Notes: generated by a model not told the origin, from the letters alone. A stretch of DNA of 64,000 nucleotides from an uncultured Eubacteriales bacterium (GCA_900551325.1 URVM01000006.1:81744-145743); one strand, 5' to 3'. Shown: positions 1 to 18,012, numbered from the stretch's first letter. Program-made: numbers and translations.

Positions 1-18
1 TTGAAAAAAATACAGAAT

Positions 19-157
19 ATGTACTGTACTAACTCCCATTAGCCCAGACAAGCTAAAGTAATCTCTACAGCGTATCTACTCATAACACCCCACACCCAAA
101 CTCCCCATGCACCCTTCATACCTCCAGGATAAACTGGGTCTATGTTGACCATACTCC
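19..157 (+). repeat. Y-element copy 1 (C-rich boundary repeat directly abutting REP-like copy 1)
   Basis: By-eye alignment with 11354..11463: shared GTACTAACTCCCATT ... CCCTTCATACC.C.AGGATAAACTGGGTCTATGTTG.CCATACTCC. Weaker match to 6648..6727. Confidence 0.6.
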
Positions 158-223
158 TAGCAAGGCTATAGGCTGATGCCTCTAGCCTAAGGTGCCAGTC
201 ACCTGACAATTTAGATACAATTT
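158..223 (+). repeat. REP-like cassette-boundary repeat copy 1 (full: module 1 hairpin + module 2)
   Basis: TAGCAA-GGCTATAGGC-TGAT-GCCTCTAGCC-TAAG-GTGCCAGTCAC-CTGACAATTTAGATACAATTT. 10-bp stem with one mismatch, then a GTGCC.GxCAC palindrome. Confidence 0.85.
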
Positions 224-301
224 GATTAGGGTATAAACAAGAAGAGGAATAAAGTAAGGTGTTCCTTTTTTCTTAAATAGAGTAATAAGGAGTATTAAGA
301 T

Positions 302-1213
302 ATGAAAGAACCAATATTAGTAATTATGGCAGCAGGAATGGGGAGTCGTTATGGTGGGCTTAAGCAAATAGATCCGATTACGGCAGAGGGAGAAATTATT
401 ATTGATTTTTCTATCTATGATGCCATCAAAGCAGGCTTTAAAAAGGTAGTCCTTATTATTAAAGGCGAGCATGAACAGGACTTTAGAGATGTAATAGGAA
501 ATAGATTATCAGATTACATAGAAGTAGAGTATGTACATCAAGAGTTACATATATTACCTGAAGGATATGCTGTGCCAGAAGGACGTACAAAACCTTGGGG
601 CACCACCCATGCTATTTGGTGTTGTAAAGATGTAGTAGATGCACCGTTTGTTGTACTGAATGCGGATGATTATTATGGTCCAGAGGCGTTTAAACATATG
701 TACAGACATCTTTGTGAGATACAGGAAAGTGGTCAATCTGAATATGCCATGGTGGGTTACATACTAAACAATACACTTACAGATCATGGTCATGTGACAC
801 GTGGAGTGTGTCAAATACAGAATGGTTACCTCACAGAGGTTGTAGAGCGTAAACAAATTGAGCGCCAAGATGGTGTAGTAAGATACTTTGATAAAGATAA
901 GTGGGTAGATGTATCACCAGATCGTCTTGTATCTATGAACATGTGGGCGTTGACACCAGATGTTTTTGCACAGTTAGAAGAGGATCTTGTGGATTTCTTA
1001 GAGCATGAAGTACCACTTGATGTGGAAAAGTCTGAATGTCTCATTCCAACAACTATTGGTGAGTTGATTGAAAAAGGTGAAGCAAGAGTTAAGATGTATG
1101 CTTCACATGATACATGGCAAGGGGTTACTTATAAGGAAGATAAGCCTGGTGTAATGGCAGCTCTTAAAGGTTTGAAAGAGGATGGGTTATATCCAGAGAG
1201 ATTGTGGGGGTAA
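302..1213 (+). CDS. sugar-phosphate nucleotidyltransferase-like protein (GT-A / NTP_transferase fold), paralogue 1 of 3
   Basis: Motifs MAAGMGSRYGGLKQ, KPWGTTHA and LNADDYYG. AAGGAG RBS upstream. Near-identical paralogues at 4594 and 10011. Confidence 0.85.
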   Translation: MKEPILVIMAAGMGSRYGGLKQIDPITAEGEIIIDFSIYDAIKAGFKKVVLIIKGEHEQDFRDVIGNRLSDYIEVEYVHQELHILPEGYAVPEGRTKPWGTTHAIWCCKDVVDAPFVVLNADDYYGPEAFKHMYRHLCEIQESGQSEYAMVGYILNNTLTDHGHVTRGVCQIQNGYLTEVVERKQIERQDGVVRYFDKDKWVDVSPDRLVSMNMWALTPDVFAQLEEDLVDFLEHEVPLDVEKSECLIPTTIGELIEKGEARVKMYASHDTWQGVTYKEDKPGVMAALKGLKEDGLYPERLWG

Positions 1214-1225
1214 GGAGGAGAATGG

Positions 1226-1516
1226 ATGCTTAGTAAGTTCTTTAATAATGAGCATGAAGAAGTAGATAGATCTATAGAACGTAAACTAAGAGATTTAAGT
1301 TTGCAGAATGATGTGGAGAGATTAAAAGCTATGCCATGTATTATTATTCATGAGGAAGAACATGATGCATATGAAATACGAGAAATTTCTTTATCAGATG
1401 TGGTTGGTTTTAATAGACCTACAATGAGAACTGAAAAAAATTGGTTTGAGTGCTTAGATTCTCTTACGAAAATGTATATATTTGATCGCTTTAAAGGCAT
1501 AGAAAATTTCCAATAG
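1226..1516 (+). CDS. hypothetical 96-aa cassette protein, operonic with nucleotidyltransferase copy 1
   Basis: GGAGGAG RBS 12 nt after the upstream stop. Its TAG stop is the first triplet of repeat copy 2. No family recognised. Confidence 0.55.
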   Translation: MLSKFFNNEHEEVDRSIERKLRDLSLQNDVERLKAMPCIIIHEEEHDAYEIREISLSDVVGFNRPTMRTEKNWFECLDSLTKMYIFDRFKGIENFQ

Positions 1517-15811: not shown

Positions 15812-15819
15812 AATTCACC

Positions 15820-17358
15820 TCACACTGTATGAAGTCTTGCTTGTTCTTTTTCGATCTCTCGACACATTAGTGCTTTGATAATGTGGAATTTATTGATAGA
15901 TGACTGACCTTCTAAGTCAGCAAAAGTACGTGCCAGCTTAAGGAATTTGTGGTAAGTACGAGCACTATAGCTGAATTTATCATAAGCTTGTCTAAGAAGT
16001 GTAGTGCTTTCTGCATCGATAGTACAGTAAGTATTGATAAGGTCAGGAGTCATATTGGCGTTGGCATAAATGCCAGGATGCTTGGCATAGCGTGTTTTTT
16101 GTATATTTCTAGCTCGTTCTACCTTGGAACGTAAGTGTTGGGAGGATGGACCAGCTTTTTCATCTTGTAGATCAAGAATGTTTAGTGCTTTAAAATTCTT
16201 TTGAATATCAAGGCGATCTAGAATAGGTCCAGAAAGCTTTGAACGATATTTTTTAATTTCATAATCAGTACAATGACATCTAGTTTCACCGTAGTAACCA
16301 CAAGGACAAGGGTTCATTGCAGCTACAAGCATAAAATGAGCGGGAAATTGGTGAGCATGCTGAACACGAGAGATGGTCACATACCCATCTTCTATAGGTT
16401 GTCTTAAAGCATCTAGTGTATGTTTACTAAACTCTGCAATTTCATCTAGAAATAAGATACCGTGATGAGCAAGTGAAATTTCCCCAGGCATAGCATAACG
16501 TCCACCACCAATGAGCGAGTTCATAGAAGCATTATGATGTGGTGCTCTAAAAGGACGTTCACTAATGAGATTACCTTTGTTTTTGAGGATACCTGCTACA
16601 CTATAAATCTTAGTAATTTCAAGGGATTCAGTTTCACTTAGAGAAGGTAAAATAGTAGGAATACGTTTGGCAATCATAGATTTACCACACCCAGGTGTAC
16701 CAGACATAAGTAAATTATGACCACCAGCGGCAGCAGCACATATAAATTCAATAGAAGAATCTTGGCCTTTTACATCACAAAAGTCTACAATGTAAGGACT
16801 CGCATCTGTATGAATATTAGATTTATGAACGATAGGCTCATAAGGATTAGTTCCGTTTAGAAAGGAAATAACCTGTTTCAAATCTTCAAATGCAAAAATA
16901 TTTAGTCCTTTGACCAGTTTAGCTTCAGCTAAATTATCAAAGGGAACGATAATGTTTTTTATGCCATGATTTTTGGCTTCTATAACCATAGGCAAAATAC
17001 CAGAACAGGCACGTAGCTTGCCATTTAAAGAAAGCTCACCTAAAATTGCATATTTATCAATTTCAGAAGCATTAAGTTGTTCGGAGCGTATGAGTAAACC
17101 AATTGCCATACCTAAATCAAAGTGTGATCCACGTTTCTTAAGGTCGCTTGGAGAAAGGTTAATGACAATTTTCATTTTGGGGAATTCCAATTTAGAATTA
17201 ATAATAGCAGCTTCAAGGCGCTCGCGAGATTCTTTAACTGCTTGATCTGCTAGCCCAACAATGGATAAAGAAGGTTGCCCATAGAGTGTATCTACTTCAA
17301 TGTGGACAAGATGAGCTTCTATACCTAATAAAGAAAAACTATTAATAATAGTTGCCAT
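15820..17358 (-). CDS. comM: YifB/ComM family Mg-chelatase-like AAA+ ATPase
   Basis: Lon-like N-terminal domain, Walker A GTPGCGKS, LFLDEIAEF, and a CPCGYYG...C zinc-like motif. 8 nt upstream of dprA. Confidence 0.9.
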   Translation of the reverse strand: MATIINSFSLLGIEAHLVHIEVDTLYGQPSLSIVGLADQAVKESRERLEAAIINSKLEFPKMKIVINLSPSDLKKRGSHFDLGMAIGLLIRSEQLNASEIDKYAILGELSLNGKLRACSGILPMVIEAKNHGIKNIIVPFDNLAEAKLVKGLNIFAFEDLKQVISFLNGTNPYEPIVHKSNIHTDASPYIVDFCDVKGQDSSIEFICAAAAGGHNLLMSGTPGCGKSMIAKRIPTILPSLSETESLEITKIYSVAGILKNKGNLISERPFRAPHHNASMNSLIGGGRYAMPGEISLAHHGILFLDEIAEFSKHTLDALRQPIEDGYVTISRVQHAHQFPAHFMLVAAMNPCPCGYYGETRCHCTDYEIKKYRSKLSGPILDRLDIQKNFKALNILDLQDEKAGPSSQHLRSKVERARNIQKTRYAKHPGIYANANMTPDLINTYCTIDAESTTLLRQAYDKFSYSARTYHKFLKLARTFADLEGQSSINKFHIIKALMCREIEKEQARLHTV

Positions 17359-17362
17359 GATT

Positions 17363-17923
17363 TTAATCCACTACTTTCAATTTAGATTCTACAAAATTTT
17401 GATAAAGTTTAGGTGCTTGACTAGATTCAAAGTAATTCAAAATACGTTCAGGATGAAGAAAATCAATAGTTTTTCTTCCTATAAAAGCACTATAACTAGA
17501 CCAAGTATACTCTTCAGGGGTAGTAACCATATTTGCGTGAACGGGATTAAGATGGATATATCTGCTCACTTCTAAAAGTTGGTGATCAAGGGAAATAGGC
17601 TCAGTAAAGAAACGATCTTGAAATAAATGTCCCACATAATTGTACTTATCATTAAAGTAACGAGCATACCCAGTGTTTAATCTATGCATAAAAGTACTTA
17701 AAGGTTCTTTGCTCATACGCATAAGTAAATGAACGTGATTGTCCATGAGACAATAACATATCACCTCAAAAGGTGTATCTTGCAGTTTCTTCAAATAGAA
17801 ACGTATTAAGTTTAGAAATTCTTGAAAGTCACCCTCATCCCTAAAGATATCATTACGATGATTACCACGACAGGTAATATGATAATAGCCATTTTCATAC
17901 CACTGCCTAGCTTTTCTACCCAT
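17363..17923 (-). CDS. REP-associated tyrosine transposase-like protein (RAYT; IS200-like Y1 HUH family)
   Basis: YHITCRGN..., HUH motif NHVHLL and catalytic-Tyr context RYIHLNPV...YTWSSY. Its stop is only 4 nt from the comM start. Confidence 0.8.
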   Translation of the reverse strand: MGRKARQWYENGYYHITCRGNHRNDIFRDEGDFQEFLNLIRFYLKKLQDTPFEVICYCLMDNHVHLLMRMSKEPLSTFMHRLNTGYARYFNDKYNYVGHLFQDRFFTEPISLDHQLLEVSRYIHLNPVHANMVTTPEEYTWSSYSAFIGRKTIDFLHPERILNYFESSQAPKLYQNFVESKLKVVD

Positions 17924-17978
17924 ATACTATACCTCAACCTTTTTTAGAGATTATAGACCTAGAGAGGTAATTTTATTC

Positions 17979-18012
17979 AGGTGCCAGGCACTTGACAATT
18001 TAGCCGCAATTT
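17979..18012 (+). repeat. REP-like repeat copy 14 (module 2 only), 55 nt upstream of the RAYT start
   Basis: CAGGTGCCAGGCACTTGACAATTTAGCCGCAATTT. Confidence 0.8.

What the first reader, a model, noticed from the sequence alone, without database searches (positions are those of the whole stretch)
1..18012. Integron-like unidirectional cassette array delimited by 14 REP-like hairpin repeats and ending at a RAYT (Y1 HUH) gene
**Seen - repeat copies.** A bipartite ~65-nt repeat occurs 14 times, always on the + strand. Copies start at 158, 1514, 2537, 4452, 7126, 8045 (half), 8091, 8738, 9868, 11566 (degenerate), 13431 (half) plus 13468, 14121, 14717 (half) and 17979 (half). I noticed no module-2-containing copy in the other 46 kb.

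**Seen - consensus.** (G/A/C)TAG-CAA-[GGCTATAGGC-TGAT-GCCTCTAGCC]-TAAG-[GTGCC.GGCAC]-CTGACAATTTAGACACAATTT. Module 1 is a stem-loop. Module 2 is a short palindrome followed by two ACAATTT repeats.

**Seen - position relative to genes.** Most full copies start at, or within ~12 nt of, the stop codon of the preceding + strand ORF (copies 1, 5, 7, 10 and 11 follow non-coding sequence). The intervals (0.3-3 kb) hold one or two genes, almost all on the + strand.

**Seen - cassette content.** The content is of the accessory/conflict type:
- an inverted RelE/Phd pair with its own promoter
- a HEPN protein
- a RelE-like fusion protein
- DUF3990-DUF3791
- YjcQ
- small membrane proteins
- a lipoprotein

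**Seen - recombinase genes.** The only recombinase-type gene in this part of the window is the Y1 HUH gene at 17363..17923 (HVH motif, YIHLNPV).

**Established knowledge.**
- RAYTs act on REP hairpins that are preceded by a conserved GTAG.
- Integron attC sites recombine as folded single strands.
- Chromosomal integron arrays are unidirectional and rich in TA cassettes.
- As far as I recall, surveys found classical integrons essentially absent from Firmicutes.

**Inference.** This may be a cassette-capture or cassette-shuffling array that uses REP-like sites and a HUH enzyme in place of attC and IntI. More conservatively, it may be a REP/BIME-seeded recombination hotspot. The left edge is cut by the window, so an integrase upstream cannot be excluded.
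Basis: partly seen in the sequence, partly recalled or inferred. Interest (0 to 1): 0.9.

Follow-up and report, generated by a model that had tools for sequence, protein, structure and literature searches.

The report
Repeat-bounded gene array beside transposase operon
A gut bacterium (uncultured Niameybacter) has a one-directional row of small toxin-antitoxin, defence and surface genes separated by a hairpin repeat that also brackets a neighbouring single-strand-DNA transposase-like gene; this looks like an integron but is not one, recurs in related species, and may be an undescribed way of shuffling accessory genes.

Summary
There are 15 copies or part-copies of a bipartite ~65-nt repeat, all on the + strand in 1-18,016, and none in the other 46 kb or in 9.7 kb recovered upstream. 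It is not an integron: there is no IntI, no attC core sites and no other recombinase. The repeat is a TAG-tagged REP-like element. Its module 2 brackets the adjacent Y1 HUH (RAYT-type) gene, which is the first gene of an old Y1-comM-dprA operon. That synteny is conserved in Clostridia, and Y1-dprA in Bacillaceae, each with species-specific flanking repeats. The whole layout recurs in two other Cellulosilyticaceae species: the Y1/comM/dprA cluster, a one-directional repeat array antiparallel to it, toxin-antitoxin and defence modules, and a nearby polysaccharide locus. Their repeats are homologous but diverged. One toxin-antitoxin module is shared with one of them, between host-specific repeats. 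Repeat edges are breakpoints: truncated genes are fused exactly to the 5' TAG. The array also holds three copies plus one fragment of the capsule-locus terminal nucleotidyltransferase gene. The most likely origin is recombination at the REP edges, probably by the Y1 enzyme acting on single-stranded DNA, together with homologous exchange. Catalysis is inferred, not shown.

The parts
158..227 (+). Repeat copy 1, full (TAG, hairpin 1 type A, hairpin 2, tail). It lies between the last polysaccharide-locus gene and nucleotidyltransferase (NTase) copy 1.
   Evidence: 75.7 bits
1514..1576 (+). Repeat copy 2, full, with the type B stem (GTGGAGG/CCTCCAC). Its TAG is the stop of the 96-aa ORF, and a terminator hairpin follows.
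2535..2605 (+). Repeat copy 3, full. Its 5' TAG edge is fused to a truncated 815-aa membrane-protein gene.
4452..4516 (+). Repeat copy 4, with a degenerate module 1. Its TAG is the stop of the 599-aa ORF.
   Evidence: 40.6 bits
7126..7195 (+). Repeat copy 5. Module 1 is a hybrid (type A left arm, type B right arm).
8045..8084 (+). Module-2-only copy at the right side of the inverted toxin-antitoxin (TA) module.
8091..8160 (+). Repeat copy 7, full.
8738..8807 (+). Repeat copy 8, full. Its 5' edge is the novel junction of the 647-bp tandem duplication (8090-8736 / 8737-9383).
   Evidence: (D8)
9868..9933 (+). Repeat copy 9, full. Its TAG is the stop of the DUF3791-like ORF.
11555..11623 (+). Repeat copy 10, degenerate.
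   Evidence: 57.5 bits
13433..13466 (+). Module-1-only copy, 34/34 identical to 159-192, abutting the next full copy.
   Evidence: (D12)
13467..13537 (+). Repeat copy 12, full. It is followed after 22 nt by an NTase 3' fragment.
14120..14196 (+). Repeat copy 13, type B stem, with a 10-nt duplication in the tail.
14717..14755 (+). Module-2-only copy. Its tail overlaps the dprA stop codon.
17978..18016 (+). Module-2-only copy, 58 nt upstream of the Y1 start. It overlaps a minus-strand promoter-like site (TTGTCA-17-TAAAAT).
17363..17923 (-). Y1 HUH protein of the RAYT type (HVH at residues 63-65, Tyr122). It is the first gene of the operon.
15820..17358 (-). comM (Mg-chelatase-like / YifB helicase), starting 5 nt after Y1.
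14750..15811 (-). dprA, starting 9 nt after comM.
302..1213 (+). NTase copy 1, the conserved last gene of the hypervariable polysaccharide locus.
4594..5508 (+). NTase copy 2 (about 87% nucleotide identity to copy 1).
10011..10940 (+). NTase copy 3 (about 89% nucleotide identity to copy 1).
13560..13820 (+). NTase 3' fragment (last 86 codons), fused upstream of the YjcQ gene.
   Evidence: (D1)
1900..2550 (+). Truncated N-terminal 211 codons of an 815-aa membrane protein that is intact in strain L050.
7290..8002 (-). Inverted Phd / RelE-ParE-like TA module. It is shared at 88% identity with the L053 array.
8918..9870 (+). DUF3990 plus partner, matching the PADLOC candidate defence pair PDC-M10 A/B. 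A truncated duplicate of the first gene lies at 8271-8756.
13814..14137 (+). YjcQ-family gene.
14451..14651 (+). Cold-shock protein gene. It is the conserved right flank of the variable region in relatives L010, L012 and L015.

Best explanation
**What it is.** The region is a strain-variable array of small accessory gene modules: toxin-antitoxin pairs, a candidate defence pair, surface and membrane proteins, and reiterated copies of the capsule-locus terminal nucleotidyltransferase. The modules are separated by a lineage-specific, TAG-tagged, bipartite REP-like element made of hairpin 1, hairpin 2 and an A/T-rich tail. That element is the cognate flanking repeat of the adjacent RAYT-type Y1 HUH gene, which heads a Y1-comM-dprA operon.

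**How it works (proposed).** All repeat copies lie on the G-rich strand, which is the lagging-strand template and becomes single-stranded during replication. The Y1 enzyme binds the hairpins there. It cleaves and rejoins DNA at the repeat edges: 5' of TAG, at AAGG just 5' of hairpin 2, and 3' of the tail. This inserts, duplicates, truncates or deletes repeat-bounded segments. Homologous recombination through the conserved nucleotidyltransferase gene and through the repeats then imports and reshuffles modules between strains and species.

**Shown:**
- the architecture;
- its recurrence in related species;
- repeat edges acting as breakpoints;
- exchange of a module between species.

**Inferred:**
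- that Y1 is the catalyst;
- that single-stranded intermediates are involved.
For: 1. **Clustering.** 15 copies, all + strand, in 18 kb. None in 46 kb downstream or 9.7 kb upstream.
2. **Y1 is RAYT-like.** NCBIfam REP_Tyr_transpos gives 76.9 bits against a cutoff of 80. The family profile's best match among solved structures is E. coli TnpA-REP (4ER8, E=0.0015), against IS200/605 TnpA at E~0.5. H63, H65 and Y122 are invariant.
3. **Module 2 brackets the operon.** Copies lie 58 nt upstream of Y1 and overlapping the dprA stop. The same layout is seen in L052 and L053. The palindrome upstream of Y1 is perfect in three species but differs in sequence: GTGCC/GGCAC, GTACC/GGTAC and GTGAC/GTCAC.
4. 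**Distant orthologues have their own flanking repeats.** Y1-ComM-DprA operons in Clostridium spp. and Y1-DprA in Bacillaceae carry species-specific direct repeats or hairpins.
5. **L053 shows the same architecture.** Its comM/dprA are 70-78% identical at the nucleotide level. It has at least 10 copies, all antiparallel to the operon, starting at the dprA stop, with HepT/MNT, ParE/Phd, PBECR and the same Phd+109-aa module between them.
6. **L054 shows it too.** Its Y1 is 57% identical. It has a homologous repeat family of at least 9 copies on both sides of ComM-DprA-Y1, with Fic, HEPN, PT-TG and RT genes between them.
7. **Breakpoints at the 5' TAG.**
   - An 815-aa gene is truncated at 2536|2537.
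   - The 647-bp duplication has its junction at 8736|8737.
   - In L053 an NTase tail is cut mid-codon and joined to GTAG.
   - Three different last capsule genes abut the same repeat upstream of the NTase.
8. **Breakpoints at the 3' tail and at TAAGG.**
   - NTase fragments start at nt 951 in the window but at nt 1107 in L053, directly after the repeat.
   - The NTase stop TAA-GG leads straight into hairpin 2 in L013 and L007.
   - In the window a 96-aa gene plus module 1 sits between TAAGG and TAAAG.
9. **Module exchange.** The TA module core is 85-94% identical between species, while the flanking repeats are host-specific and the core operon is only 69-78% identical.
10. **Strand.** The repeat top strand is the G-rich strand in all four Cellulosilyticaceae loci.
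11. **Published biochemistry.** E. coli RAYT acts only on ssDNA and needs the hairpin plus the 5' GTAG. It cleaves with low sequence specificity on either side of the REP, and its strand transfer builds tandem and variant REP arrays (PMC3333891).
Against: - No biochemical or population evidence that this Y1 cleaves these sites.
- Near-identical strains (about 8 contigs) all carry the same array, apart from one 647-bp duplication that could be an assembly artefact.
- Covariation in the hairpins is not statistically better than the shuffles.
- G-T and A-C mismatches are balanced, so there is no strand signature.
- The Y1-comM-dprA operon exists in many Clostridia and Bacilli that have only 2-4 flanking repeats and no array, so Y1 alone does not produce arrays.
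- In L053 the Y1 and comM genes look truncated although the array persists.
- The NTase duplications and gene relics can be explained by homologous and illegitimate recombination during capsule-locus exchange, without any site-specific enzyme.
- The genome-wide distribution of the repeat could not be measured.
Confidence: 0.55

Rival explanations
1. **Passive REP family in an ordinary recombination hotspot.** The repeat would be a terminator, insulator or mRNA-stabilising hairpin at gene ends. The array would be the variable region between conserved flanks (the capsule-locus nucleotidyltransferase gene and csp/dprA). It would be built by homologous and homology-facilitated illegitimate recombination during capsule switching, with the repeats serving only as short portable homology. 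Y1 would play no current role.
For: - The NTase is the conserved last gene of a hypervariable polysaccharide locus, and the region after it differs in every relative.
- There are three NTase copies plus tails, and gene relics such as 1695-1808 and the truncated 815-aa gene.
- Copy 7126 has a hybrid repeat, as expected from crossovers inside repeats.
- Terminator-like hairpins follow the repeat tail.
- Array GC content equals the genome's.
- REPs supplying TAG stops are ordinary (PMC3733652).
Against: - It does not explain junctions that fall exactly at the first base of the repeat with unrelated, truncated genes upstream, in four or more cases across two species.
- It does not explain module-2-only copies where no + strand gene ends (8045, 17979).
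- It does not explain the conserved anchoring of arrays to the Y1 cluster, with fixed antiparallel orientation, in three species.
Confidence: 0.3
2. **A true integron analogue.** Discrete promoterless cassettes would each carry one repeat. Y1 would excise them as single-stranded circles and reinsert them at a dedicated primary site, so that genes are captured and reordered on demand.
For: - A unidirectional array rich in TA and defence modules, with inverted TA modules carrying their own promoters, as in chromosomal integrons.
- Host-specific repeats flank a shared module, as with the species-specific attC sites of sedentary integrons.
- Module-2-only sites at the NTase stop and next to the Y1 operon could act as primary sites.
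Against: - No cassette presence/absence or order polymorphism bounded by repeats on both sides was found among strains.
- Many 'cassettes' hold two or three genes, gene fragments or whole NTase segments.
- Terminator-like hairpins after most repeats argue against a single upstream promoter.
- The homology of the shared TA module stops 10-25 nt short of the repeat on one side.
Confidence: 0.15
3. **An RNA element.** The repeat would act in the transcript, for example as a 3' UTR stabiliser, an RNase processing site or an antitermination signal of a long capsule-operon read-through transcript.
For: - All copies are co-oriented with most genes and with the upstream polysaccharide operon.
- Copies start at stop codons and are followed by terminator-like hairpins.
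Against: - Copies keep the same orientation where the flanking genes are on the other strand (RelE/Phd and Y1-comM-dprA), and copy 17979 follows no + strand gene.
- There is no Rfam match, even with permissive thresholds.
- An RNA role does not explain edge-exact DNA breakpoints.
Confidence: 0.1
4. **A conventional integron or other site-specific recombinase system**, with the recombinase lying outside the sequence seen.
For: Only that the whole genome could not be inspected.
Against: - No Phage_integrase or resolvase domain in 64 kb plus 9.7 kb upstream.
- No RYYYAAC/GTTRRRY cores in any copy, on either strand.
- The left end of the array abuts capsule biosynthesis genes, not an integrase.
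Confidence: 0.02

Closest known systems
REP / RAYT systems (REPtrons; E. coli TnpA-REP with REP/BIME, Pseudomonas REPINs)
   Same: - A single-copy Y1 HUH protein of the RAYT clade, flanked by its own short imperfect palindromes.
- A 5' (G)TAG tag, with the TAG often supplying the stop codon of the upstream ORF.
- Species-specific repeat sequence.
- Tandem and partial copies, as produced by RAYT strand transfer.
   Different: - The host is a Firmicute.
- Copies are single units in one orientation rather than inverted doublets.
- The unit is bipartite, with a conserved A/T-rich tail.
- Within the sequence sampled, copies are concentrated in an array next to the Y1 gene rather than dispersed.
- The copies delimit accessory-gene modules.
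- Y1 is co-operonic with comM and dprA, and the repeats bracket the three-gene operon.
IS200/IS605 family transposons (IS608, ISDra2)
   Same: - A Y1 HUH enzyme.
- Hairpin-containing ends in direct orientation on one active strand.
- Preference for the lagging-strand template.
- No target duplication.
   Different: - The bracketed unit holds core genes (comM, dprA) and is single-copy.
- The protein is closer to RAYT than to TnpA-IS200.
- There is no tnpB.
Sedentary chromosomal integrons (for example the Vibrio cholerae VCR array)
   Same: - A long unidirectional array of small, mostly co-oriented accessory genes.
- Richness in toxin-antitoxin modules, some of them inverted.
- Modules separated by a structured, species-specific repeat that starts at or overlaps stop codons.
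   Different: - No IntI tyrosine recombinase, no attI and no attC architecture.
- Modules are often multi-gene or fragmentary.
- Terminator-like hairpins follow the repeats.
- The associated enzyme is an HUH nuclease.
Variable regions flanking capsule / O-antigen loci (recombination hotspots between conserved flanks)
   Same: - Conserved flanking genes (the nucleotidyltransferase gene and csp) with strain-specific content between them.
- IS insertions and gene relics in relatives.
   Different: - A dedicated repeat family with edge-exact junctions.
- Conserved linkage to a Y1 gene.

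Membership tests
Integron | IntI-type tyrosine recombinase adjacent to the array | tested here: not met
   No Phage_integrase or any other recombinase domain was found in any ORF of at least 85-120 aa in the window, or in the 9.7 kb upstream.
Integron | attC sites (R''/L''...L'/R' with RYYYAAC and GTTRRRY cores) | tested here: not met
   No repeat copy contains either core on either strand, and no core pair 35-130 nt apart occurs in 1-18,100. The IntegronFinder attC covariance model was not available.
Integron | Unidirectional array of discrete cassettes, each with one recombination site | tested here: inconclusive
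   The array is unidirectional and every interval ends in a repeat. However, intervals hold one to three genes, gene fragments and duplicated NTase segments.
Integron | Cassette excision and integration as circles | not testable with these tools
   This needs PCR or long-read data.
REP/RAYT (REPtron) | Y1 HUH protein of the RAYT clade with an HUH motif and a catalytic Tyr | tested here: met
   - Pfam Y1_Tnp, E=4e-16.
- NCBIfam REP_Tyr_transpos at 76.9 bits, just under the cutoff of 80.
- The profile's best solved-structure match is 4ER8.
- H63, H65 and Y122 are invariant.
REP/RAYT (REPtron) | Short imperfect palindrome with a conserved 5' GTAG | tested here: met
   - TAG is invariant across three repeat families.
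- The preceding base is G in 6 of 13 copies.
- Hairpin 1 usually has an internal mismatch.
REP/RAYT (REPtron) | RAYT gene flanked by its cognate repeats | tested here: met
   Module 2 lies upstream of Y1 and at the dprA stop in the window and in L053, upstream of Y1 in L052, and on both sides of the cluster in L054. The flanking copies are direct rather than inverted, and they flank the three-gene operon.
REP/RAYT (REPtron) | Tens to hundreds of copies dispersed through extragenic space | tested here: inconclusive
   There are zero copies in 56 kb flanking the array and none in 9.9 kb of L053 outside its array. The rest of the genome could not be scanned.
REP/RAYT (REPtron) | REPIN doublets (two inverted REPs) | tested here: not met
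   All copies are in one orientation and there are no inverted pairs.
IS200/IS605 transposon | Multi-copy mobile unit of tnpA (with or without tnpB) between left-end and right-end hairpins | tested here: not met
   - The bracketed unit is Y1-comM-dprA, which is syntenic across Clostridia.
- The NCBIfam IS200 model scores only 16.3 bits against a cutoff of 55.

The most novel reading that the evidence does not exclude
The Y1-ComM-DprA operon may be a single-strand-DNA integration machine coupled to natural transformation. DprA and ComM would handle incoming single strands, and the RAYT-type Y1 enzyme would cut and join them at hairpin repeats. Foreign gene modules would thus be captured into a repeat-delimited array. 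That would be a functional analogue of the integron, built on an HUH nuclease instead of a tyrosine recombinase, in a phylum that lacks integrons.
Probability: 0.15. Interest if true: 0.95.

Novelty: new variant of a known kind. Interest (0 to 1): 0.75.

Why it matters
- **A possible function for RAYTs.** RAYTs are widespread 'domesticated' transposases with no agreed function, and REPs are usually treated as dispersed genomic litter or regulatory hairpins. Here a RAYT-type gene is tied in at least three species to a one-directional array. In that array its cognate repeats delimit toxin-antitoxin, defence and surface-gene modules, and the repeat edges are recombination breakpoints. This gives a concrete, testable role: structuring and diversifying an accessory-gene locus.
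- **A candidate replacement for integrons.** Firmicutes lack integrons, and this offers a possible answer to how they assemble comparable cassette-like arrays.
- **An unreported gene linkage.** The conserved Y1-comM-dprA linkage across Clostridia, and Y1-dprA in Bacilli, connects an ssDNA nuclease with the ssDNA-handling proteins of natural transformation. I found no report of this linkage in the literature searches.
- **Relevance to gut bacteria.** The locus sits next to a hypervariable capsule locus, so it bears on strain-level variation of surface and defence traits.

Tried and rejected
- **Exact module-2 pattern in public collections.** 0 hits in 185,579 species-representative genomes and 0 in JGI metagenomes. 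A broader two-module pattern gave one chance hit in AT-rich DNA and none in viral contigs. The family is therefore narrow, and no further arrays could be recruited this way.
- **Module 2 as a sigma-70 promoter.** Promoter-like sites are not enriched (75 found, 73 expected). Only weak GTGCCA-18-TACAAT matches fall in some copies. A -10-like hexamer 12 nt after the tail occurs in about 8 of 14 copies. That count comes from my own reading of the sequence and is suggestive only.
- **Foreign origin of the array.** GC content matches the rest of the window. Plasmid and phage searches hit only the csp gene.
- **P0123 (815 aa) as a fusion.** I first took it for a 216+599-aa fusion that lacked the repeat. 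It is instead the full-length form of the truncated membrane protein.
- **Strand-specific wobble.** G-T and A-C mismatches in the palindrome are balanced, 10 against 10.
- **Covariation as proof of structure.** It was not significant.
- **Rfam.** No family matches the repeat.
- **dif/Xer, sigma-54, Fur, CsrA and DNA-uptake-sequence readings of module 2.** I considered these from memory of their consensus sequences and dropped them for lack of a match. None was tested with a tool.

Full report
**1.

The module-2 pattern gives 11 matches. All are on the + strand and within 192-18,011, and none is expected by chance. Repeat finding and a profile built from the copies raise this to 15 copies or part-copies, all on the + strand. 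They lie at 158, 1514, 2535, 4452, 7126, 8045, 8091, 8738, 9868, 11555, 13433, 13467, 14120, 14717 and 17978. Nothing credible is found in 18-64 kb.

The unit reads (G/A)TAG-CAAGG-[hairpin 1]-C-TAAGG-[13-nt palindrome, hairpin 2]-TGACAATTTAGACACAATTT. Hairpin 1 has two stem versions, GGCTATAGGC/GCCTCTAGCC and GTGGAGG/CCTCCAC, which align in register.

- Pairing is far above the slid-partner controls: 79% against 16-48%, and 83% against 24-44%.
- Covariation is not statistically better than the shuffles.
- Six of ten copies fold into the two hairpins as DNA with z-scores of -1.8 to -2.9.
- Three ORFs stop at the TAG itself, and three more stop 11-18 nt inside the repeat. The repeat carries stop codons in all three frames (read directly from the sequence).

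**2.

- The array holds three full copies and one 3' fragment of a 303-aa NTP-transferase gene, 84-92% identical at the nucleotide level. Each full copy sits directly behind a repeat plus a conserved leader.
- Sequence upstream of the window was recovered from a metagenome contig of the same strain. It is a polysaccharide biosynthesis locus that ends about 125 nt before repeat copy 1. There is no integrase.
- In six relatives this nucleotidyltransferase (NTase) is the conserved last gene of a polysaccharide locus whose other genes differ each time. The region after it also differs each time, with csp as a recurrent right flank.
- The organism is an uncultured Niameybacter sp. of the Cellulosilyticaceae.
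- The Y1 gene is not isolated. Y1, comM and dprA are separated by 4 and 8 nt on the minus strand.

**3. It is not an integron.**

- No recombinase other than Y1 is found in 64 kb plus 9.7 kb.
- No attC-type core sites occur in any copy.
- No Rfam family matches the repeat.
- Array GC content is the same as the genome's.
- Plasmid and phage collections match only the csp gene.

**4. The repeat belongs with the Y1 gene.**

- **Protein class.**
  - Y1 scores 76.9 bits on NCBIfam's RAYT model, against a cutoff of 80.
  - It scores only 16.3 bits on the IS200 model.
  - A profile of 22 homologues finds E. coli TnpA-REP (4ER8) as its best solved-structure relative. The alignment runs through the HUH and Tyr motifs.
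- **Operon bracketing.** Module-2-only copies bracket the operon. One lies 58 nt upstream of the Y1 start, and the other overlaps the dprA stop.
- **Distant species.**
  - Y1-ComM-DprA is a directly adjacent gene order in C. algidicarnis, C. carboxidivorans, C. oryzae, Clostridium sp. KNHs214 and a Clostridiaceae MAG.
  - Y1-DprA is adjacent in eight Bacillaceae.
  - In four of the five Clostridia the operon is bracketed by species-specific direct repeats of 13-52 nt, and the downstream copy begins 0-46 nt after the dprA stop.
  - In three of the eight Bacillaceae loci a GC-rich hairpin flanks Y1-dprA.
- **Controls.** Control window pairs score about 20 bits at the median, against 32-56 bits for the real flanks in L016, L020 and L021. 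The 13-nt L017 match scores only 26 bits. A few control pairs also score high, so those genomes contain other repeats as well.

Flanking by cognate repeats is the defining REP-RAYT arrangement. A TAG tag that supplies stop codons is a published REP hallmark (PMC3733652, PMC5581495).

**5. The architecture recurs.**

- **L053.** This is a Cellulosilyticaceae MAG whose comM and dprA are only 70-78% identical to the window at the nucleotide level.
  - It has polysaccharide genes, then Y1-ComM-DprA.
  - Starting at the dprA stop, it has at least 9 copies of the same repeat family, all antiparallel to the operon. One more module-2 copy lies about 60 nt upstream of Y1.
  - Between the copies lie a 77-aa gene, HepT/MNT, ParE/Phd, a PBECR gene, the same Phd+109-aa module as in the window, and two NTase tail fragments.
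- **L052.** Its Y1 is 74% identical, and it keeps the module-2 copy upstream of Y1.
- **L054.** Its Y1 is 57% identical and the gene order is ComM-DprA-Y1.
  - It has its own family of at least 9 direct repeats on both sides of the cluster. The genes between them are Fic, HEPN, PT-TG toxin and reverse-transcriptase genes, with polysaccharide genes beyond.
  - Read in the antiparallel sense, these repeats start with TAG and align with the window and L053 families at 68% mean column identity.
- **Strand.** In all four loci the repeat top strand is the G-rich strand, i.e. the lagging-strand template.
- **N. massiliensis.** It has no repeat at its NTase gene and does not appear among the Y1 homologues.

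**6. The repeat edges are breakpoints.**

At the 5' TAG:
- The window's 216-aa ORF is the first 211 codons of an 815-aa gene that is intact in strain L050. Identity is 95.5% up to ...GTGGAGG, after which the window reads TAGCAAGG.
- The window differs from three assemblies of the same strain by a 647-bp tandem duplication. Its novel junction joins the middle of DUF3990 to the first bases of a repeat.
- In L053 an NTase tail is cut 22 nt before its stop and joined to GTAGCAAGG.
- Three different last capsule genes abut the same repeat upstream of the NTase, in the window, L013 and L010.

At AAGG, just 5' of hairpin 2:
- In L013 and L007 the NTase stop codon is the TAA of TAAGG, which leads straight into hairpin 2.
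- In the window a 96-aa gene plus module 1 sits exactly between TAAGG and TAAAG.
- Module-2-only copies occur at 8045, 14717 and 17978, and in L010, L015, L052 and L053.

At the 3' tail:
- NTase fragments begin after the repeat at NTase nt 951 in the window but at nt 1107 in L053.
- Tandem or partial copies occur at window 13433/13467 and at L053 14387/14334.

These products resemble what E. coli RAYT makes in vitro. That enzyme acts only on ssDNA, depends on the hairpin plus GTAG, cleaves with low specificity on either side of the REP, and performs strand transfer that gives tandem and variant arrays (PMC3333891).

**7. Modules move between species, but the repeats are host-specific.**

The shared toxin-antitoxin module is 85-94% identical from its leader hairpin through both genes. 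The flanking repeats carry each host's own version (GGTGCC.GGCACC against GTGCCTGTCAC). The neighbouring core operon is only 69-78% identical. This resembles sedentary integrons, whose attC sites are species-specific (from my knowledge of that literature).

**8. What remains unproven.**

- No Y1 activity has been shown.
- No unit bounded by repeats on both sides was seen to be present in one strain and absent in another.
- Several intervals are multi-gene segments or relics, such as window 1695-1808, which derives from a 447-aa gene that is intact in L050.
- Terminator-like hairpins follow most repeats.
- The Y1 and comM genes of L053 look truncated.
- The repeat's genome-wide distribution is unknown.
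- A passive-REP-in-a-hotspot model explains the NTase reiteration well. It does not explain the edge-exact junctions, or the conserved anchoring and polarity of the arrays relative to the Y1 cluster.

**Verdict.**

This is a REP/RAYT-type system of an unusual kind. It is unidirectional and array-forming, it delimits modules, and it is linked to comM-dprA. It looks like an integron but is not one.

Noticed in passing
window 83-159; also 11390-11466 and 6665-6719; L006 9757-9850: A ~77-nt element (TAACACCCCACACCC...GGATAAACTGGGTCTATGTTGACCATACTCC) sits just before three of the repeat copies. A related sequence precedes the nucleotidyltransferase gene in N. massiliensis, which has no repeat there. 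It could be a small RNA or a tiny minus-strand ORF at the end of the polysaccharide locus.
   Followed up: partly
window 236-262, 4532-4560, 9948-9976; L013 about 3545-3575: A strong terminator-like hairpin (GGGGAATG...CATTCCTC followed by TTTTT) lies only about 35 nt upstream of each nucleotidyltransferase start codon. This leaves no room for a promoter, so the gene may be expressed by regulated read-through from the capsule operon.
   Followed up: no
window 14370-14702: The 5' UTR of the cold-shock gene matches the Rfam cspA thermoregulator (RF01766) at 76.7 bits, just under the gathering score of 78.
   Followed up: no
L016-L021, L027-L034 (genome loci): A RAYT-type Y1 gene lies immediately upstream of comM-dprA in Clostridia and of dprA in Bacillaceae. 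In several of these loci it has species-specific flanking repeats. I found no description of this synteny in the searchable literature.
   Followed up: partly
window 7196-7245, 8161-8210, 8808-8857; most L053 copies: A third, AT-rich hairpin with a conserved base (CCACrGrTAAT...ATTATyTGTGG, followed by a T-run) follows the repeat tail in one subfamily of copies in both species. The unit may therefore be tripartite.
   Followed up: partly
window 8750: The only base difference between the two copies of the 647-bp duplication lies 13 nt from the junction. The change (C to A) restores a base pair in hairpin 1. It may be a trace of the event or a conversion from another copy.
   Followed up: no
L018 (Haloimpatiens lingqiaonensis) 3381-5086 and 8001-8719: Two copies of Y1, each followed by a 5' fragment of comM. 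This is a segmental duplication that starts at the Y1 gene.
   Followed up: no
L002 (scaffold HEQI17-1...scaffold_431): This scaffold is a perfect inverted duplication around position ~11,570 and ends in the repeat region. It is almost certainly an assembly artefact caused by the repeats.
   Followed up: no
L010 10847-13161; L012 8479-10705; L050 1239-3602: IS21 and IS66 elements are inserted in the relatives' versions of this variable region. In L010 one interrupts the nucleotidyltransferase gene itself.
   Followed up: no
window 25789-30987: A 1732-aa secreted protein with Peptidase_M60, F5/8 type C and NPCBM domains, which looks like a mucin-degrading enzyme. This fits a gut habitat.
   Followed up: no
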